From: a virus
Lineage: Duplodnaviria; Heunggongvirae; Uroviricota; Caudoviricetes
Direction: 5' to 3' (one strand)
IMG/VR virus record: IMGVR_UViG_2645727978_000010
Length of the DNA: 38,285 nucleotides
The translations under genes and the position numbers were made by a program. Below are positions 1,095 to 13,230 of this stretch, in pieces. Every line of letters begins with the position of its first letter. Positions within the stretch are counted from its first letter, which is position 1. The notes below the pieces were generated by a model. The model did no database searches. It worked only from the letters and a program-made list of their open reading frames with translations, and was not told where the DNA came from.

Positions 1095-4000
1095 TCAGAT
1101 GCTCAGTGCTTCAAGACGACGAAGATCAAAGTCGTTTAATTCGTCGGTATAACTTTCGGTAATCGGTGCTGGCCAGTTGTTTGTCTCCAGAGCTTCGTTT
1201 ATCTGTCGTAGCGTCCGGCGATATTCCTGTCGACCAAGTTCCAGGAGTTCCTGCGAGGCTTCCACGACGGCCACCCAGTGATAGCCAGCATCTTTGTTGA
1301 CGAAGATCCAGAAAAATTTGTCCAGGTTTGCCACATCGCAATACATTGCTGCGCTGAGGTGATAATCACGCTCAATAATTTCACGGTGCAGGCGATCTTT
1401 CAGTCGTTCCTGTCGCACATAACCGAGGCTGACTGACTTCACGTCGGCGCAAATGCTTTCGTATGGCAGCCGGATTTCGATATCAGGACGGACCCTGATT
1501 TCCAGCCCGGTTTCTTCATCAAACCCGAAATAGCTGATTTCAGATTTGCGATCCGGGTGGTTGAGTAGCCTTGCTGCATCAGTATTGTTTTGCAGTGCTG
1601 CGTGAATATTTTTTGCCTGTTCATACATATCCGGACTGATAAACGTTTTCCCGGCGTTTTCTTCTTGCTGGCATTTTTGCCAGTCCTCCAGTGTCACCAG
1701 TTCCGGGCGAATTTTCCGGGCGATTTCGGTTAATTGCTCTTTTGTGCCACTGATGTTGTAAGGCAAAGATTTAGCACGTTCTTTTTTTGCCAGTTCTGGA
1801 TCTACAGTTTCAATTTGCTCCAGGAGCTGCTCCCGTGTTCCACTGGCTTTCAGCAGAGGAGGGAGGCTTGCGTTGTATTCTTTAATACAGGCTTTCATTG
1901 CTGATGCTGTGTGTTTTTCCCCCTCAGGAATACGCCGGAATTCCTCCGGAAGCGAACCGTAAAGGATGCCTGTTTCTTCGGCCCCGGCACTTACCGACAG
2001 TGGCTGTATAAGAGTGCTGTTGTAGCTTTCGATCCACTCTTTCATCTGCTCTGGTGTCATCAGTGCTGGCAGACTGGCATTGTGTTTTTTAATGATGGCG
2101 ATCAGTTCGTTAGAAGTAGTAACCACATATTCAGGAACCGGTACCGGAATGGCATACTCATCAGCGAATTTATCCGTTTCCAGAACATAGCTGTGAATAA
2201 TCCGCCCACGCAGCAATGCATCACTTTCCTCGCCCAGAATAGTTCCGGCAATGTGCCGTCCGTGGTAATACATCAGGCTGATGCGGGCATCCTTCAGCAT
2301 TGTGCTGCTTATTCCGTTGGCGGAGTGATAAACCTCGTTCGGGAGGTTTTCATAGCGGCCAGGCTCGAAATATGACGGCCACATGATTTCAGTTACTACA
2401 GGTGCTGTCGCTTCACCAGCTTCATCACTGCAATCGCAATGCGGATTGCTGCCAGCGTTCTCCTTGTGCGGATGTTCAGCACCTTCCATTTCCTCCGGAT
2501 CATTTTCCTGAACTTCAACCTGATTCTCTTCATCGAATGTTTCCTGGTATGTTGCGTCGCCCATCACCGCGCCACAATCAGGGCAGTTGCCGCCACCGCT
2601 CTGACCGCAGGCGGTGAAGACTTTTTCCGGTTCCTGTTGCGCTACTGGTTCGGATTGTTTCGTTTCTGGCTCGTTTTGTAACGCATTTGGGCTGTTTTGT
2701 TCCGCTTTTTGGTCGTTCCGTTCCGATTCATGCTGGTTCTGGTTCACAGAATCGCGAGTCTGGATCCCCTTGACCCATTTCGGATCATTAGGGTCGCTAA
2801 TCCCCTCAACAAATTCACCACGCGATACAGCAAGTAACTTATCGGCGTCAGGCTGGCTGATATTGGCTGCCTGCATAATTTTGTTTACTTCGTCAGCGGT
2901 GACTTTTACTTGGTTAGCGGAACTCACCTGCGACTGAGCATCCAGCGACTGCGCGTTCTGGCCATGTTCAGTTGTATCCGGTTCCATTGTTTCAGTTGTT
3001 GCCTGTTCACCTGCCATTGCGTCAGATGGTTGTGGTTTTTCTTCTTCTGTTTCACGCTCAGTAACCACCTCGCGGTTAATTTCTTCCAGGATATCTTTTT
3101 CCGGCGTATGCCGGGCAGCTGTGAGAGTTTCCTTGCTGGGGTTCTCGTGATCAGTTTCCGTCAAATAGGCGTTGATATACCCCTGAAGGCGTCCCGGGTA
3201 GTGATAAAATTCAGGGTGTGCGCTTCGGATAAGTGCAAAAATAGCGGCGCGGGAATAGTCCAGAATACCCGGGGTTGCACGAAGTGCTGCGGACCATTCT
3301 TTGAACGGACTTTCTTTGTTCAGGACTACTTCTTTTGCGCGACGATAAACGCTGCCCGGAATTTCATAAATATTAAAATCCATCGGAAGTGTGGCTGCTG
3401 CAATCTCCACATCCAGTGTGTCGAGGGTGTGTACTAAATTCGGATTGCGATCGGTTTTGTTCCCACCGCCAGCATTAGCACCGGAAGCCGTGCGGGTGAT
3501 GCGTGAAACACGATTTCCTTTCATCCACTCTTTTGTCAGCAGACCCCGATCAGTGTAGTCAGCGTCCAGGTATGCTTCGAAAAAAGCAGTTATTAGTCCC
3601 AGGTCTGAATTACCAGGATTAGGGAAAACTTTGTCAGTGTCACGAACCAGTTTGTGGAGGTCGCGAATCTCCAGCGAGTCGAGCAGACTGGTTTTATGCG
3701 AAATAGCCAGGGCAGTAACAGCCGGTAGTTCTTCAGCCCGTGCAATGTGTAATGCCTGGAGTTCGTCGCGTGAAACGTGCGTTACTGGTTTTTCGCTGCC
3801 GTGTTGAGCAAGCCAGCGAATGGGCAGCTCCTGGCCAGAAATCGGAAGTAGCATATTCTCCTCAATCTCCGTCATGTCTTCGCCATTAACATTGGTGTTG
3901 TCAGTGCTGGCTGGTTTGCCCTGCGCAGAGGGGGAGGGCGCGATAAATACCATTGTGATGCCATCTTCCCCGCCTTTTTCGTAACGGTTGCAGAATTCCG

Positions 4001-5080: not shown

Positions 5081-5413
5081 AATTATCTCCATTTTTACAA
5101 ATGAATTTTGTCGATGCGGTGCCTGGTGCCTCCAGGTGACGTTAACCAGTTAACAATTAACGCCGGATAATCCACCCATAACACTGATGCTTTTAACTGT
5201 GCCGCGTGCGCTTAGCCGCATTCACCGCATCACAAAATTCACTTTAAAAAGGGGCGACAGGGCAGCCACGGAGTAGAACTGATGCCGCCAAAGACTACAC
5301 ATAGCAATGTCGTTATTTACAACCGGAGGCGCACTCCCACCATTTAAATTTAACAGACAAGACCGACTCTTTATGAATACCGGAAATGCGCCTTCGTGTT
5401 GTGCGCCTGTCTT

Positions 5414-6153: not shown

Positions 6154-6573
6154 TTACTCCGGTGGGGGATTATCTTTAAGCCTGCCTCTCAAATATTTTT
6201 CTACATACTCATCGATTTCTTTTAGCCGGACTTCAAATAGCTCAATCATTCGTTGTTGTTCTGAGCCCGGTAGCTGGTTAAACAACTCAAGAAGTTTTCG
6301 TTGGGATTCATTTAACCACAATTCAGAAGATTCCTGTTCTCCAAATAGGAGCTCAGGAGGAGATATGCCAAGTGCCTTTCCCAATACGACAGCGTCATGC
6401 ACTCCAACATTTCTGCTGCCCGCCTCATAGTTACCTATACGCGATTGCGTCCATCCGCAGATTTCAGCAAGTTTTCCTTGAGATAAACCAAGCTTCTGCC
6501 TGCGCTCTTTAAGACGCATTGCAATTTTGTCATTGAGCCTACTAGCGGCAATTTTTTCGTTTTCTTTTTCCAT
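6154..6573 (-). CDS. Phage repressor, HTH XRE family (RacR/CI-like), 139 aa
   Basis: Track ORF; AAGGA RBS; clear helix-turn-helix LGLSQGKLAEICGWTQSRIGNYEAG; divergent from a Cro-like gene across an operator-containing intergenic region. Confidence 0.8.
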   Translation of the reverse strand: MEKENEKIAASRLNDKIAMRLKERRQKLGLSQGKLAEICGWTQSRIGNYEAGSRNVGVHDAVVLGKALGISPPELLFGEQESSELWLNESQRKLLELFNQLPGSEQQRMIELFEVRLKEIDEYVEKYLRGRLKDNPPPE

Positions 6574-6669: not shown

Positions 6670-6912
6670 ATGAACAAAATTTCAACATATCGAAAACAGC
6701 TTGGGCTGTCTCAAAGACAACTTGCTGTTCAGTTAGGGTGGATACAAAGCCGACTGGCAAATTACGAAGCAAATTTTCGTACCCCTGGACTAGAGGAGTG
6801 CAGAAAAATTGTTTCTACCCTTAATCGGCTTGGCACTCATTGTGGACTTGACGATGTATTCCCCCCAGACGGTAAGCATAGCGAAAACAGCATAGGAGCG
6901 GTTGATTCATGA
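6670..6912 (+). CDS. Cro-like HTH regulator (YdaS-like), 80 aa
   Basis: Track ORF; GGAGG RBS 6659-6663; HTH LGLSQRQLAVQLGWIQSRLANYE; first gene of rightward operon, divergent from repressor. Confidence 0.75.
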   Translation: MNKISTYRKQLGLSQRQLAVQLGWIQSRLANYEANFRTPGLEECRKIVSTLNRLGTHCGLDDVFPPDGKHSENSIGAVDS

Positions 6913-7331
6913 AAATCAGGCATGAGCACATCGAATCAGTGTTGTTAGCCCTGGCAGCCGAAAAAGGGCAGGCGTGGGTCGCTAACGCAATTACTGAAGA
7001 ATATCTGCGCCAGGGGGGCGGCGAATTGCCCCTTGTACCAGGCAAGGACTGGAACAATCAGCAGAATATCTATCACCGTTGGTTGAAAGGTGAAACGAAA
7101 GCGCAAAGGGAAAAAATTCAGAAACTGATCCCTGCGGTTCTGGCAATTCTTCCGCGCGAGCTGCGTCACCGACTCTGCATCTTCGATACCCTGGAACGCC
7201 GTGCATTACTGGCGGCGCAGGAAGCGTTGAGTACGGCAATTGATGCGCATGATGATGCAGTCCAGGCCGTTTACCGGAAAGCACATTTCAGCGGTGGTGG
7301 GTCGCCCGGCGATTCTGTCGTAGTGCATTGA
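6909..7331 (+). CDS. ydaT: YdaT-like protein (140 aa)
   Basis: Track ORF; ATGA overlap with upstream cro-like gene; 140-aa size and sequence recall Rac YdaT. Confidence 0.65.
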   Translation: MKIRHEHIESVLLALAAEKGQAWVANAITEEYLRQGGGELPLVPGKDWNNQQNIYHRWLKGETKAQREKIQKLIPAVLAILPRELRHRLCIFDTLERRALLAAQEALSTAIDAHDDAVQAVYRKAHFSGGGSPGDSVVVH

Positions 7332-7375: not shown

Positions 7376-7396
7376 TGTAACGCTGCGAGCGTTACA
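7376..7396. repeat. Iteron-like palindrome TGTAACGCT-GCG-AGCGTTACA (copy 1)
   Basis: Perfect 9-bp arms; 13 bp upstream of ydaU-like start codon. Confidence 0.6.
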
Positions 7397-7408
7397 AGGT
7401 GAAAACAA

Positions 7409-8221
7409 ATGGCTTCAAACTGGATAAAGCTCGAGGTTATTACGCCGGATAAGCCGGAAATATTCAGGCTTGCTGAGATTCTGAATATTGATCCAGATGC
7501 CGCATTAGGGAAGGTTATTCGCTTCTGGGCATGGGCGGATCAACAAATGATAGACGGTAATGCAGATTGTAACGCTCGCGGCGTTACAAAAAGTGCAATA
7601 GATCGCATCACTTTTATGGCTGGTTTTGCTGATGCGTTAATTCAGGTTGGATGGCTGGTCGAAAATGACGTTGGGCTTTCTCTACCTAACTTTGAACGTC
7701 ATAACGGAAAAAGCTCTAAAAAACGGGCGGTTACAAACGAGCGAGTTACAAAAATACGCGAACTGAAACGAAAAGGTAACGCTGCCAGCGTTACACAAAC
7801 GGATCAAAAAGCGTTACCAGAGGAAGAGGAAGAGGAAGAGGAAGAGGAAGAGGAAGAGGAAGATCTAAATACTGATCTCCCCCTAAATCCCCCTCGCCAA
7901 AAACGAGCGTCTAAAAAATTCGAGCCGGAGGCTATTGAGCTGCCTGATTGGTTGCCGGAAACACTCTGGCATGAGTGGGTCCGGTTCAGACAGGCATTGC
8001 GAAAACCGATTCGAACGGAGCAGGGCGCTAACGGGGCGATACGGGAACTGGAAAAATTCCGTCAGCAGGGTTTTACACCTGAGCAGGTGATTCGACACAG
8101 CATCGCCAATGAATACCAGGGCTTGTTCGCACCGAAAGGTGTTCGGCCTGAGACGTTGCTCCGACAGGTTAACACCGTCTCGTTGCCGGACAGTGCGATC
8201 CCGCCAGGCTTCAGGGGGTAA
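7409..8221 (+). CDS. YdaU-like phage replication protein (270 aa) with internal poly-Glu tract
   Basis: Track ORF; AAGGTG RBS; immediately upstream of DnaC-like loader (O/P-like arrangement); contains iteron-like palindromes and a 14-Glu run. Confidence 0.6.
   Translation: MASNWIKLEVITPDKPEIFRLAEILNIDPDAALGKVIRFWAWADQQMIDGNADCNARGVTKSAIDRITFMAGFADALIQVGWLVENDVGLSLPNFERHNGKSSKKRAVTNERVTKIRELKRKGNAASVTQTDQKALPEEEEEEEEEEEEEEDLNTDLPLNPPRQKRASKKFEPEAIELPDWLPETLWHEWVRFRQALRKPIRTEQGANGAIRELEKFRQQGFTPEQVIRHSIANEYQGLFAPKGVRPETLLRQVNTVSLPDSAIPPGFRG
7568..7588. repeat. Iteron-like palindrome TGTAACGC-TCGCG-GCGTTACA (copy 2, inside ydaU-like CDS)
   Basis: Perfect 8-bp arms sharing the GTAACGC core with copy 1. 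Confidence 0.6.
7730..7751. repeat. Direct repeat of GTTACAA half-sites (7730-7736 and 7745-7751)
   Basis: Two copies of GTTACAAA 15 bp apart, same core as the palindromes. Confidence 0.45.
7776..7794. repeat. Iteron-like palindrome GTAACGCTG-C-CAGCGTTAC (copy 3, inside ydaU-like CDS)
   Basis: Perfect 9-bp arms; an extra AGCGTTAC half-site follows at 7810-7817. Confidence 0.6.
7820..7861 (+). repeat. Hexanucleotide tandem repeat (GAGGAA)x7 encoding 14 consecutive Glu
   Basis: Seven perfect GAGGAA units, in frame within ydaU-like CDS. Confidence 0.9.
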
Positions 8222-8227
8222 CAGACC

Positions 8228-8974
8228 ATGAAAAATATTGCGACAGGCGGCGTTCTGGAGCGTATCCGCAGACTGACCCCACCACATGTAACCGCCCCAT
8301 TCAGAACGGTTGCGGAGTGGCGCGAGTGGCAACTTGCTGAAGGCCAGAAACGTTGCGAGGAGATCAACCGCCTGAATCGTCAGTTGCGGGTGGAAAAAAT
8401 CCTGAATCGCTCTGGCATCCAGCCGTTGCACCGCAAATGCTCGTTTGCGAATTACCAGGTGCAGAACGAAGGGCAGCGATACGCGTTAAGCCAGGCGAAA
8501 TCCATCGCCGATGAACTGATGACCGGGTGTACAAATTTTGCGTTCAGCGGAAAACCTGGTACCGGGAAGAATCACTTAGCGGCAGCTATCGGGAATCGCC
8601 TGCTGAAAGACGGTCAGACAGTGATTGTGGTTACCGTGGCTGATGTTATGAGCGCCCTGCACGCCAGCTATGACGACGGGCAGTCAGGCGAAAAATTTTT
8701 GCGGGAGCTGTGCGAAGTGGATCTGCTGGTTCTTGATGAAATTGGCATTCAGCGCGAGACGAAAAACGAGCAGGTGGTACTGCACCAGATTATTGATCGA
8801 CGGACAGCGTCGATGCGTAGCGTGGGAATGCTGACAAACCTGAACTATGAGGCCATGAAAACATTGCTCGGCGAGAGGATTATGGATCGCATGACCATGA
8901 ACGGCGGGTGTTGGGTGAATTTTAACTGGGAGAGCTGGCGTCCGAATGTCGTCCAGCCAGGAATTGCGAAGTAA
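8228..8974 (+). CDS. DnaC-like replicative helicase loader (IstB-like AAA+ ATPase; YdaV-like), 248 aa
   Basis: Track ORF; Walker [16 protein letters not shown] and Walker [10 protein letters not shown]; follows the replication-initiator-like gene. Confidence 0.8.
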
Positions 8975-12898: not shown

Positions 12899-12964
12899 TG
12901 CTGCGGGTGCTTGAGGCTATCTGCCTCAGGCATGAACACCAAAAGGCAGATAGAGAAAAGCCCC

Positions 12965-13027
12965 AGTTAACATTACGCGTCCTACAAGACGCTTAACATT
13001 AATCTGAGGCCCAATCTATGTCTCACA
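12965..13027 (-). ncRNA. Candidate Sok-like antisense RNA (approximate extent)
   Basis: Minus-strand promoter-like TTGCCT (13061-13056) -17 bp- TAACCT (13038-13033) inside the hok leader, reading across the leader ORF start; hairpin GCGTC-n6-GACGC at 12977-12992; ends not determinable. Confidence 0.3.
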
Positions 13028-13074
13028 AATGTAGGTTAGCCTCTTACGTGCCGAAAGGCAAGGAGAAGCAGGCT

Positions 13075-13230
13075 ATGAAGCAGCAAAAGGCGATGTTAAT
13101 CGCCCTGATCGTCATCTGTTTAACCGTCATAGTGACGGCACTGGTAACGAGGAAAGACCTCTGCGAGGTACGAATCCGAACCGGCCAGACGGAGGTTGCT
13201 GTCTTCGTGGACTACGAATCTGAGAAGTAA
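13075..13230 (+). CDS. hok: Hok/Gef-family type I toxin (51 aa; RelF/HokD-like)
   Basis: AAGGAGAAG RBS; product MKQQKAMLIALIVICLTVIVTALVTRKDLCEVRIRTGQTEVAVFVDYESEK has single TM helix plus conserved Cys, matching my recollection of HokD/RelF; the in-frame upstream extension (track ORF 13018..13230) occupies the mok position. Confidence 0.85.
   Translation: MKQQKAMLIALIVICLTVIVTALVTRKDLCEVRIRTGQTEVAVFVDYESEK

What the first reader, a model, noticed from the sequence alone, without database searches (positions are those of the whole stretch)
7820..7861. (GAGGAA)x7 in-frame tandem repeat giving a 14-Glu tract in the replication protein
A perfect hexanucleotide repeat is slippage-prone, and every unit change keeps the reading frame. 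It therefore encodes a length-variable acidic linker between the N- and C-terminal parts of the ydaU-like protein.
Basis: seen in the sequence. Interest (0 to 1): 0.4.

Follow-up and report, generated by a model that had tools for sequence, protein, structure and literature searches.

The report
Variable GA repeat inside phage origin
A perfect (GAGGAA)x7 repeat in a prophage replication-initiator gene is a rare expanded allele of a slippage-prone tract that encodes a floppy poly-glutamate linker, and comparison with distant phages shows the purine-only DNA itself is conserved next to initiator binding sites, so it is probably also part of a replication origin hidden inside the gene.

Summary
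(GAGGAA)x7 lies at 7820-7861, in frame in a 270-aa initiator gene (7409-8221), and gives 14 Glu.

Related E. coli prophages carry 2-8 units, with 3 the mode. Alleles with identical flanks differ in copy number. Seven units is rare: the exact protein is on record only on this contig.

AlphaFold places the tract in a low-confidence linker between a winged-helix-like N-domain and a small helical C-domain. Only the C-domain is YdaU-like.

The tract is not only a linker. It follows three GTAACGC-N5-GCGTTAC palindromes and a half site. These are conserved across bacterial phyla with invariant arms and free spacers.

In distant relatives (epsilon15, Xanthomonas CP2, Ralstonia and Pseudomonas phages, Planctomycetes prophages, more than 240 environmental contigs) the same position holds (GAGAA)n. 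There it is read as EKRREEK, not poly-Glu. Arg is always the rare codon AGA, and the half-site sequence co-varies with the protein.

So the purine tract is constrained as DNA. The most likely reading is that it belongs to an origin inside the gene, as with lambda ori inside gene O. That step is inferred, not shown.

The parts
7820..7861 (+). Perfect (GAGGAA)x7 in-frame tandem repeat, codons 138-151, 14 Glu
7819..7863 (+). 45-nt homopurine run on the coding strand. It is the local hexamer form of the family-wide GA tract, which is (GAGAA)n in distant relatives.
   Evidence: next longest run in the window is 14 nt; for the homologous tracts.
7409..8221 (+). Replication-initiator gene, 270 aa (PHROG 2509). 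Winged-helix-like N-domain about residues 11-97, disordered linker 98-168, helical C-domain about 169-244 with a DnaT-like tail.
7700..7912 (+). Coding region for the predicted disordered interdomain linker (residues 98-168). It contains a basic stretch, the GNAASVT peptide, poly-Glu and PLNPP.
   Evidence: pLDDT below 50 over residues 98-168.
7377..7395 (.). Palindrome 1, GTAACGC-TGCGA-GCGTTAC. It starts 32 nt upstream of the ATG and abuts the ribosome-binding site.
   Evidence: conserved at -31 to -43 in homologues.
7569..7587 (.). Palindrome 2, GTAACGC-TCGCG-GCGTTAC. It encodes the CNARGVT loop of the N-domain.
   Evidence: low pLDDT at residues 54-57.
7776..7794 (.). Palindrome 3, GTAACGC-TGCCA-GCGTTAC. 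It encodes GNAASVT in the linker.
7811..7817 (+). Lone half site GCGTTAC, separated from the purine tract only by 'C' (GCGTTAC-CA-GAG...). It encodes K-A-L-P.
   Evidence: GTTACCAGAG is conserved across phyla.
7862..7878 (+). Short A+T-rich box GATCTAAATACTGATCT with two GATC sites, directly 3' of the tract.
   Evidence: In 131 environmental homologues the 10 nt after the tract are 72% A+T against about 45% around them.
7879..7893 (+). C5-TAAAT-C5 element (encodes PLNPP). Twin C-runs recur here across the family and also in K-12 ydaU. A 10-nt slippage deletion occurs here in truncated alleles.
8228..8974 (+). DnaC-like helicase loader (ydaV type) immediately downstream of the initiator gene.

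Best explanation
SHOWN:
- The tract is a real in-frame hexanucleotide microsatellite.
- It changes length by replication slippage. Related prophages carry 2-8 units, 3 is the mode, and this window holds a rare 7-unit allele in an intact gene.
- It encodes a poly-Glu stretch in a predicted disordered linker. The linker joins a winged-helix-like N-domain to a small helical C-domain with a DnaT-like tail.
- The tract is the enterobacterial hexamer version of a GA-rich homopurine element conserved as DNA. In relatives from other phyla it is (GAGAA)n.
- This element always lies directly 3' of the last of several short inverted and direct repeats. Those repeats sit at fixed positions in and just upstream of the initiator gene, and their sequence co-varies with the N-domain.

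INFERRED:
- This array is the phage origin of replication embedded in the initiator gene, as ori-lambda is embedded in gene O at the part that encodes the O linker.
- Initiator dimers bind the palindromes and the adjacent half site.
- The neighbouring strand-asymmetric GA tract and short A+T box form the region that is opened, where the downstream DnaC-like loader places DnaB.
- Transcription through the gene would put a purine-rich RNA on the pyrimidine template and could help opening.
- Copy-number change would therefore alter both the linker length (probably tolerated) and the length of a cis-acting origin element (possibly tuning firing).
For: Repeat and frame.

Polymorphism:
- An evenly spaced sample of 60 from 679 complete E. 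coli genomes gives 2 units x3, 3 units x50, 4 units x6, 8 units x1.
- Only 3 of 671 genomes have 5 or more units.
- IMG/VR contigs range from 2 to 8 units.
- Identical flank haplotypes carry 3/4/7, 3/6/8, 2/3, 4/5, 5/6 and 6/7 units.
- Strain 300709 is 100% identical in the rest of the gene but has 3 units.

Module edge: K-12 ydaU homology begins at query base 452, the end of the repeat.

Binding-site-like repeats:
- 7 of the 12 GCGTTAC in 38 kb fall within 7377-7817, while shuffles give a mean of 3.6 and a maximum of 7.
- The same palindromes occur at -31 to -43, +149/161 and +338 to +413 in Mixta, Erwinia, Yersinia, Serratia, Pantoea, Planctomycetes and Saccharibacteria homologues. Arms are invariant and spacers free.
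- In 154 xNAxxVT peptides Asn is always AAC and Val always GTT. Codon 0 is xGT in 153 of 154 and codon 4 is xGC in 149 of 154, although the amino acids at those two positions differ.
- epsilon15, Klebsiella BUCT711 and phiPSA1 use GTCCGC/GCGGAC, Raharianne uses GTAGAC, and a Vibrio phage uses TGTCAC, each in the same two clusters.

DNA-level conservation of the tract:
- AGAGAAGAGAAGAGAAGAGAAGA follows the last half site in phages of hosts from 48 to 66% GC.
- It is read as EKRREEK rather than poly-Glu.
- Arg inside the tract is AGA in 15 of 15 cases, against about 9% outside it.
- More than 240 environmental contigs share the arrangement.

Lambda precedent:
- Iterons inside O are followed by an 18-nt purine run on the sense strand.
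- In-frame 12- and 15-bp deletions there destroy the origin, yet the shortened O proteins still complement (PMC6022878).
Against: - No experiment shows origin activity, initiator binding or strand opening for this family. No publication on it turned up in the searchable library.
- The tract is about 45-50% G+C, not a classical A+T-rich unwinding element. The A+T box after it is only 10-17 nt.
- The three palindromes lie about 200 bp apart, unlike the tight iteron arrays of lambda.
- One palindrome abuts the ribosome-binding site, so the sites could serve autoregulation instead.
- Purine-only codons encode only Lys, Arg, Glu and Gly, so a charged linker is expected to be purine-rich to some degree.
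- The environmental sets were selected with a pattern that already contained GTTACCAGAGAAGAG. Only the protein-anchored sets are unbiased.
- Most long alleles (5-8 units) seen outside this window sit in frameshifted genes. That fits relaxed constraint rather than a tuning function.
Confidence: 0.6

Rival explanations
1. The tract is only a protein feature: a length-variable acidic spacer between the DNA-binding and loader-recruiting domains. Its purine-richness and repeat structure are by-products of Glu codons and slippage.
For: - Poly-Glu of 4-10 residues is present in homologues from Citrobacter, Salmonella, Klebsiella, Serratia and Yersinia.
- The region is predicted disordered.
- In-frame length changes are common in intact genes.
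Against: - Distant homologues keep the GA tract but encode EKRREEK, a mixed-charge peptide rather than an acidic one.
- Arg inside the tract is always the rare AGA codon, even in hosts of 57-66% GC.
- The identical 23-nt DNA string recurs where the N-domains are only 33-47% identical.
- K-12 YdaU has the same C-domain and no acidic tract at all.
Confidence: 0.2
2. The palindromes and GA tract are a cis-regulatory element, not an origin. The initiator would repress its own transcription or translation through them.
For: - Palindrome 1 lies just upstream of the ATG and abuts the Shine-Dalgarno sequence.
- Many Rep proteins repress their own genes through inverted repeats (general knowledge of iteron plasmids; PMC10797057).
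Against: - Two of the three site clusters lie deep inside the coding sequence, at about +160 and +370, in every lineage.
- The GA tract and A+T box have no obvious role in repression.
- The layout parallels ori-lambda inside O.
- A helicase loader or helicase gene follows in all cases examined.
Confidence: 0.1
3. The 7-unit array is a neutral or slightly harmful microsatellite expansion with no function at any level, tolerated because it lies in a floppy segment of a prophage gene.
For: - Three units is the mode, and 5 or more units occur in about 0.4% of E. coli genomes carrying this gene type.
- The 5-8 unit alleles with the window's right-flank type in IMG/VR carry a 10-nt frameshifting deletion.
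- The exact 7-unit protein is on record only once.
Against: - A tract is retained at this position in nearly all members examined, across phyla and reading contexts. Only the extra units can be neutral, not the tract itself.
- The window's gene and its neighbours are intact.
Confidence: 0.07
4. It is an RNA-level or translational signal: Shine-Dalgarno-like GAGG/AGGA motifs pause ribosomes or start an internal product. Alternatively, the copy number is an assembly artefact.
For: - GAGGAA contains GAGG and AGGA.
- The window is a draft-assembly contig.
Against: - The ancestral GAGAA form has much weaker anti-SD complementarity.
- No start codon follows the tract.
- No Rfam family matches here.
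- 42 nt is shorter than a read, and 5-8 unit alleles occur in independent assemblies.
Confidence: 0.03

Closest known systems
ori-lambda inside gene O of phage lambda (and other lambdoid O genes)
   Same: - The origin lies inside the initiator gene, in the part that encodes the flexible linker between the DNA-binding N-domain and the C-domain that recruits the loader.
- The binding sites have dyad symmetry.
- A purine run lies on the sense strand 3' of the sites (18 nt in lambda).
- A helicase-loader gene follows.
- In-frame length changes in this segment are tolerated by the protein but not by the origin (PMC6022878).
   Different: - Lambda has four tightly packed 18-bp iterons, whereas this gene has three palindromes about 200 bp apart plus a half site.
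- Lambda's flank is a 39-bp high-A+T region, whereas here it is a G+A repeat of about 45% G+C followed by only 10-17 nt of A+T.
- There is no sequence similarity between the N-domains (Pfam finds none).
- Origin function here is untested.
E. coli K-12 Rac prophage YdaU (DUF1376 family) and its neighbour YdaV
   Same: - The gene neighbourhood matches: repressor, cro-like gene, ydaT, initiator, ydaV, DUF1627.
- The C-terminal half is 86% identical at the DNA level from the end of the repeat onward.
- The twin C-run element is shared.
   Different: - K-12 YdaU has a DUF1376 N-domain.
- It has no GTAACGC palindromes, no purine run longer than 10 nt and no poly-Glu.
- The window's N-domain and site module is a different cassette (PHROG 2509).
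DnaA box plus DnaA-trio arrangement of bacterial oriC (basal unwinding system)
   Same: A double-strand initiator site is followed directly by a short-period repeat with strong strand asymmetry, where the duplex is thought to open and one strand is captured (PMC10797057).
   Different: - DnaA-trios have a strict 3-nt period and are bound by an AAA+ domain.
- Here the ancestral unit is 5 nt, the initiator has no ATPase domain, and any single-strand binding would have to come from the DnaT-like C-domain.
- This is an analogy of layout only.
Primosomal protein DnaT (with DnaC)
   Same: - The C-terminal tail matches DnaT weakly (NCBIfam E 0.007; PDB chains 2ru8, 6aep and 9zbt at E 0.02-0.07).
- PHROG 6451 is named 'primosomal protein'.
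- The epsilon15 record cites an HHpred hit to DnaT.
- The gene sits directly upstream of a dnaC-like gene, as dnaT does.
   Different: - Only the last 30-40 residues match, and below curated thresholds.
- DnaT has no sequence-specific N-domain and no origin of its own.
In-frame coding microsatellites and homopolymeric amino-acid linkers
   Same: - The repeat unit is a multiple of 3 nt.
- Length polymorphism is driven by slippage and preserves the frame.
- The repeat lies in a disordered segment.
   Different: Here the repeat coincides with a DNA element that is conserved in relatives in a form (a 5-nt unit) that cannot be explained as an amino-acid repeat.

Membership tests
In-frame, slippage-prone coding microsatellite | Perfect tandem array whose unit length is a multiple of three, inside an open reading frame | tested here: met
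   7 x 6 nt, 100% matches, codons 138-151 of ORF 7409-8221.
In-frame, slippage-prone coding microsatellite | Copy number differs between otherwise near-identical alleles | tested here: met
   Identical 300-nt flank haplotypes carry 3/4/7, 3/6/8, 2/3, 4/5, 5/6 and 6/7 units. Strain 300709 is 100% identical outside the repeat but has 3 units.
In-frame, slippage-prone coding microsatellite | Length heterogeneity within one population | not testable with these tools
   This needs read-level data from the source strain (GCA_001265335.1).
Lambda-type origin embedded in the initiator gene | Several copies of a short sequence with dyad symmetry inside the initiator gene, specific to the initiator type | tested here: met
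   Three GTAACGC-N5-GCGTTAC palindromes plus a half site. They hold the same positions across phyla. The half-site sequence changes with the N-domain lineage. They are absent from K-12 ydaU, which has a different N-domain.
Lambda-type origin embedded in the initiator gene | Sites lie in DNA that encodes loops or the interdomain linker, and are constrained at the DNA level | tested here: met
   pLDDT is below 50 at residues 54-57 and 98-168. Asn is always AAC and Val always GTT. The xGT/xGC codon pattern holds in 153 and 149 of 154 cases, with varying amino acids.
Lambda-type origin embedded in the initiator gene | Adjacent A+T-rich DNA unwinding element | tested here: inconclusive
   The flank is a GA homopurine tract of about 40-50% G+C, followed by a 10-17 nt A+T box (72% A+T in 131 homologues). 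That is shorter and less A+T-rich than lambda's 39-bp region.
Lambda-type origin embedded in the initiator gene | Initiator gene followed by a helicase-loader or helicase gene | tested here: met
   A DnaC-like gene lies at 8228-8974. Relatives have DnaC-like or DnaB-like genes downstream.
Lambda-type origin embedded in the initiator gene | Initiator binds the sites and the fragment supports replication | not testable with these tools
   This needs EMSA or footprinting and an origin-cloning test.
YdaU family (Pfam DUF1376) | N-terminal DUF1376 domain | tested here: not met
   The window protein has no DUF1376 hit. K-12 YdaU hits DUF1376 at E 2.7e-26.
YdaU family (Pfam DUF1376) | C-terminal domain shared with K-12 YdaU | tested here: met
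   86% nucleotide identity over query bases 452-813; the protein sequences align.
H-DNA-forming homopurine mirror repeat | Homopurine-homopyrimidine tract with mirror symmetry | tested here: not met
   The tract is homopurine for 45 nt. However, reversed GAGGAA (AAGGAG) is not a cyclic permutation of the unit, so the mirror symmetry is imperfect (direct inspection). The ancestral GAGAA unit is a mirror repeat.
DnaA-trio-type single-strand initiator element | Strict 3-nt periodic motif next to the last double-strand site, bound by an AAA+ initiator | tested here: not met
   The hexamer has a GAR period of 3, but relatives use a 5-nt unit. The initiator has no ATPase domain.

The most novel reading that the evidence does not exclude
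A large, cross-phylum family of phage replication initiators carries its origin inside its own gene. The family includes epsilon15-like, Rac-like, Xanthomonas CP2-like, Ralstonia and Pseudomonas phages and many uncultured ones.

The invariant core of that origin would not be an A+T-rich unwinding element but a (GAGAA)n / (GAGGAA)n homopurine repeat placed directly after the last initiator site. Possible roles are:
- the strand-specific opening and helicase-loading site, through capture of one strand by the DnaT-like C-domain;
- a transcription-driven R-loop of purine-rich RNA on the pyrimidine template;
- H-DNA formed by the mirror-repeat form.

In enterobacteria one extra G per unit turned the 5-nt unit into a 6-nt unit. 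Slippage then became frame-neutral, which allows the origin tract to vary from 2 to 8 units and so tune replication.
Probability: 0.35. Interest if true: 0.75.

Novelty: new variant of a known kind. Interest (0 to 1): 0.55.

Why it matters
- The layout gives a sequence signature for finding the replication origin in many phages and prophages whose origins are unannotated. The signature is lineage-specific half sites in two clusters, then a GA repeat, an A+T box and twin C-runs.
- If the GA repeat is the opening or loading element, it is an origin component that is not A+T-rich yet is conserved from E. coli to Planctomycetes. That would be a tractable case for the open question of how initiators without ATPase domains melt DNA.
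- It is a clear example of one DNA segment under double duty, as protein linker and cis element. A single-base change in unit length (5 to 6 nt) made copy-number variation compatible with the reading frame.
- For the narrow finding, the 7-unit allele is simply a rare expanded variant of a common polymorphism.

Tried and rejected
- Pfam and NCBIfam on the initiator gave nothing above threshold. There was only a spurious TFIIA hit driven by the acidic run and a weak hit to the DnaT tail.
- A scan of one genome per species for 5 or more units found nothing.
- Literature searches for ydaU, oriJ, epsilon15 iterons, the GAGAAGAGAAGAG string and polypurine origins found no description of this element. 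The oriJ papers concern K-12 Rac, which has a different N-domain module.
- Reading-frame argument, considered and dropped. Because 5 and 3 are coprime, (GAGAA)n gives the same cyclic peptide EKRRE in every frame. The different frame in epsilon15 therefore does not prove DNA-level constraint. The case rests instead on poly-Glu versus EKRRE, on AGA codon use and on the identical string across hosts of different GC content.
- Hairpin or terminator reading of the palindromes, rejected. One matches a terminator-like pattern on the minus strand. But the arm sequence itself is invariant, not merely complementary, and in epsilon15 and Raharianne the half sites also occur as direct repeats.
- Promoter and terminator scans around the gene gave counts no higher than shuffled sequence.
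- Whether genes that end right after the tract support a DNA-level role: only 1 of 95 resolved environmental genes ends there, so this argument was not used.
Full report
**1. The observation**

Bases 7820-7861 read GAGGAA seven times without a mismatch. Tandem Repeats Finder reports 7819-7863, period 6, 7.5 copies, 100% matches. The array is in frame in ORF 7409-8221 (+, 270 aa) and gives ...QKALP-E14-D-LNTDLPLNPP.... It forms a 45-nt all-purine run, while the next longest purine or pyrimidine run in the 38 kb is 14 nt.

**2. The gene and its setting**

The neighbourhood is a Rac-like early region:
- a cI-like repressor (6154-6573, minus strand)
- a cro-like HTH gene (6670-6912)
- ydaT (6909-7331)
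- this gene
- a DnaC-like loader of the ydaV type (8228-8974)
- a DUF1627 gene

The rest of the window carries recE/recT-like genes and many further large ORFs on the + strand, which I did not annotate.

The protein matches PHROG 2509, 'replication initiation protein', over its full length. Its C-terminal third also matches PHROG 678 ('replication initiation O-like') and PHROG 6451 ('primosomal protein').

The last 30-40 residues resemble the DnaT tail weakly.

'YdaU-like' is only half right. K-12 YdaU has a DUF1376 N-domain and no acidic tract. Its DNA homology to this gene starts at query base 452, exactly the 3' end of the repeat. The repeat therefore marks the junction between two exchangeable modules.

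**3. Copy number**

- In an evenly spaced sample of 60 of the 679 complete E. coli genomes that carry this module, the counts are 2 units x3, 3 units x50, 4 units x6 and 8 units x1 (read from match spans and end points).
- When 671 genomes are ranked against a 7-unit query, only three have 5 or more units. These are 2013C-4974 with 8, and OkiPb01713 and O55:H7 DEC5E with 5 in intact 801-nt genes.
- In IMG/VR contigs selected for at least 2 units the distribution is 2 (17), 3 (63), 4 (32), 5 (5), 6 (1), 7 (1) and 8 (3, one of them the E. coli genome locus L001). Only 13 contigs have 5 or more.
- A protein-anchored sample of 80 gives 3 units x52, 4 x8, 2 x7 and 13 interrupted tracts.
- Alleles with identical 150+150-nt flanks carry different numbers. 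The window's haplotype is seen with 3, 3, 4, 4 and 7 units.
- Strain 300709 matches the window at 100% outside the repeat but has 3 units.
- The exact 270-aa protein is on record only on the window's own contig.

Slippage is therefore recurrent and recent, and 7 units is a rare expanded allele.

In IMG/VR, the 5-8 unit alleles that share the window's right flank carry a 10-nt deletion between TCCCCCT direct repeats just downstream. This deletion truncates the protein. The 8-unit E. coli allele has a 1-nt deletion in a C5 run and is annotated as a pseudogene. The window holds the longest intact allele I found.

**4.

The repeat is preceded by a set of short repeats. GTAACGC-N5-GCGTTAC occurs at 7377-7395 (starting 32 nt before the ATG), at 7569-7587 and at 7776-7794. 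A lone GCGTTAC at 7811-7817 abuts the purine run. Seven of the twelve GCGTTAC in 38 kb fall in this 440-nt span, whereas shuffles give a mean of 3.6 and a maximum of 7.

In 27 protein-anchored homologues the palindromes recur at the same positions, with invariant arms and free spacers. These homologues come from one genome per species and include Mixta, Erwinia, Yersinia, Serratia, Pantoea, Pectobacterium, Planctomycetes, Saccharibacteria and Ignavibacteria.

The palindromes encode x-N-A-x-x-V-T peptides in low-confidence loops. Over 154 such peptides from 97 distinct genes:
- Asn is always AAC.
- Val is always GTT.
- The first codon is xGT in 153 of 154 cases (Gly, Cys or Ser).
- The fifth codon is xGC in 149 of 154 cases.

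This is a DNA-level constraint, although many of these genes are close relatives.

More distant members use other half sites in the same two clusters, at 5-9 copies against about 1 expected:
- GTCCGC/GCGGAC in epsilon15, Klebsiella BUCT711, phiPSA1 and Ralstonia RPZH3
- GTAGAC/GTCTAC in Ralstonia Raharianne
- TGTCAC/GTGACA in a Vibrio phage

K-12 ydaU, with its different N-domain, has none of these. Site sequence thus co-varies with the N-domain, as expected for an initiator and its own sites.

**5. The purine tract is conserved as DNA**

Directly after the last half site, distant relatives carry (GAGAA)n. The string AGAGAAGAGAAGAGAAGAGAAGA (23-29 nt) is found in:
- Xanthomonas CP2
- Salmonella epsilon15
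- Ralstonia Raharianne, YL1 and RPZH3
- Klebsiella BUCT711
- Pseudomonas phiPSA1 and VW-6S (VW-6S differs at one base, AAAG for AGAG)
- two uncultured phages
- Planctomycetes and Saccharibacteria prophages (shorter or variant forms of 15-24 nt)

There it is read as EKRREEK, a mixed-charge peptide rather than poly-Glu. Arg inside the tract is AGA in 15 of 15 cases, against about 9% elsewhere in the same genes. The host loci range from 51 to 63% G+C.

Pattern scans found more than 120 viral and more than 120 metagenomic contigs with the same order of elements. Among 131 unique loci n runs from 1 to 6 with a mode of 4. The tract sits at codon 121-136, and the 10 nt after it are 72% A+T against about 45% nearby. 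These two sets were selected with a pattern that includes the start of the tract, so they show spread, not frequency.

Twin C-runs follow in many lineages, and in K-12 ydaU.

The enterobacterial GAGGAA unit differs from GAGAA by one G. That change makes the unit a multiple of three, so slippage no longer shifts the frame.

**6. Interpretation**

The layout is: lineage-specific sites with dyad symmetry inside the initiator gene, in loop- and linker-coding DNA; then a strand-asymmetric purine tract and a short A+T box; then a helicase-loader gene. This parallels ori-lambda.

In lambda, four iterons inside gene O are followed by a high-A+T region containing an 18-nt purine run on the sense strand. 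In-frame deletions of 12 and 15 bp in that region inactivate the origin, yet the shortened O proteins still complement (PMC6022878).

I therefore read the (GAGGAA)n tract as serving two roles: linker codons and part of an intragenic origin. The origin role is inferred. Nothing here shows binding, opening or replication.

How the tract would act is open. Candidates are:
- capture of one strand by the DnaT-like C-domain, a layout reminiscent of DnaA box plus DnaA-trio (PMC10797057)
- an R-loop of purine-rich transcript
- H-DNA, which suits the mirror-symmetric GAGAA form better than GAGGAA

**7. Rivals**

- A pure acidic-linker reading explains the enterobacterial data but not EKRREEK, the AGA codons or the identical DNA string in distant hosts.
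- An autoregulatory-operator reading fits palindrome 1 at the ribosome-binding site, but not the internal clusters or the tract.
- Neutral expansion probably does describe the extra four units of this allele, but not the existence of the tract.
- RNA-level signals and assembly error are unlikely.

**8. Novelty and verdict**

A polymorphic in-frame microsatellite in a linker is ordinary, and an origin inside a phage initiator gene is a known kind. What appears new is a GA-repeat homopurine element as the invariant companion of the initiator sites across a very wide phage family. Its conversion to a frame-neutral hexamer in enterobacteria also appears new. I found no description of either in the searchable literature, which is not proof of absence.

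I rate interest at 0.55 and confidence in the combined explanation at 0.6.

Noticed in passing
Homologues P0011-P0058 (376-380 aa); insertion point corresponds to window ~7878: A large subfamily of E. coli and Salmonella homologues carries an insertion of about 114 aa (THPKPFPSGREF...GRIDIVVTDRNG...ELDRNSP...) right after the poly-Glu/DxNTDL segment. It has no Pfam hit. The motif pattern looks nuclease-like, but I did not test this. Poly-Glu length varies from 6 to 10 residues in this subfamily too.
   Followed up: partly
window 7877-7893; L028, L038, L059, L083, L086, L126, L127: A 10-nt deletion (TCCCCCTAAA) between TCCCCCT direct repeats, just downstream of the tract, frameshifts the gene in a set of IMG/VR contigs. 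These contigs carry 3-8 repeat units. No complete E. coli genome in the collection has this deletion allele.
   Followed up: partly
L001 (E. coli 2013C-4974, NZ_CP027587) 3001-3818: The 8-unit allele is annotated as a frameshifted pseudogene because one C is missing from the C5 run. This may be a long-read homopolymer error rather than a real mutation.
   Followed up: no
window 7376-7403: Palindrome 1 ends immediately before the AAGGTG ribosome-binding site of the initiator gene. The same protein that binds the internal sites could therefore also repress its own expression.
   Followed up: no
window 7802, 7862, 7874: Three GATC (Dam) sites lie within 77 nt flanking the repeat, against one per about 324 nt in the window overall. 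Two of them are lost in relatives that read GATATAAAT.
   Followed up: partly
window 8165-8218 (residues 252-270): The C-terminal tail ...PDSAIPPGFRG resembles the C-terminus of primosomal protein DnaT (E 0.007-0.07). It is conserved in most homologues, and the gene precedes a dnaC-like gene as dnaT does.
   Followed up: partly
window 5252-5303 (-) and 12905-13080 (+): Rfam finds a DicF antisense RNA and a sok antitoxin RNA (hok/sok type) in the prophage, both above their gathering scores.
   Followed up: no
L480 (Vibrio phage 1.211.A) ~ +385 to +450 of the initiator gene: In place of (GAGAA)n this phage has a tandem 15-mer, (GATAAGAGTAGAGTA)x2. It is GA-rich but interrupted by T, and follows TGTCAC/GTGACA sites. 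It is a third form of the tract.
   Followed up: no
L128, L129 (Shigella flexneri SFBU1023, E. coli ECMA0423): These alleles have a point mutation in the first unit (GTGGAAGAGGAAGAT, giving VEEED) and a truncated 210-aa product. This is another decayed form of the gene.
   Followed up: no
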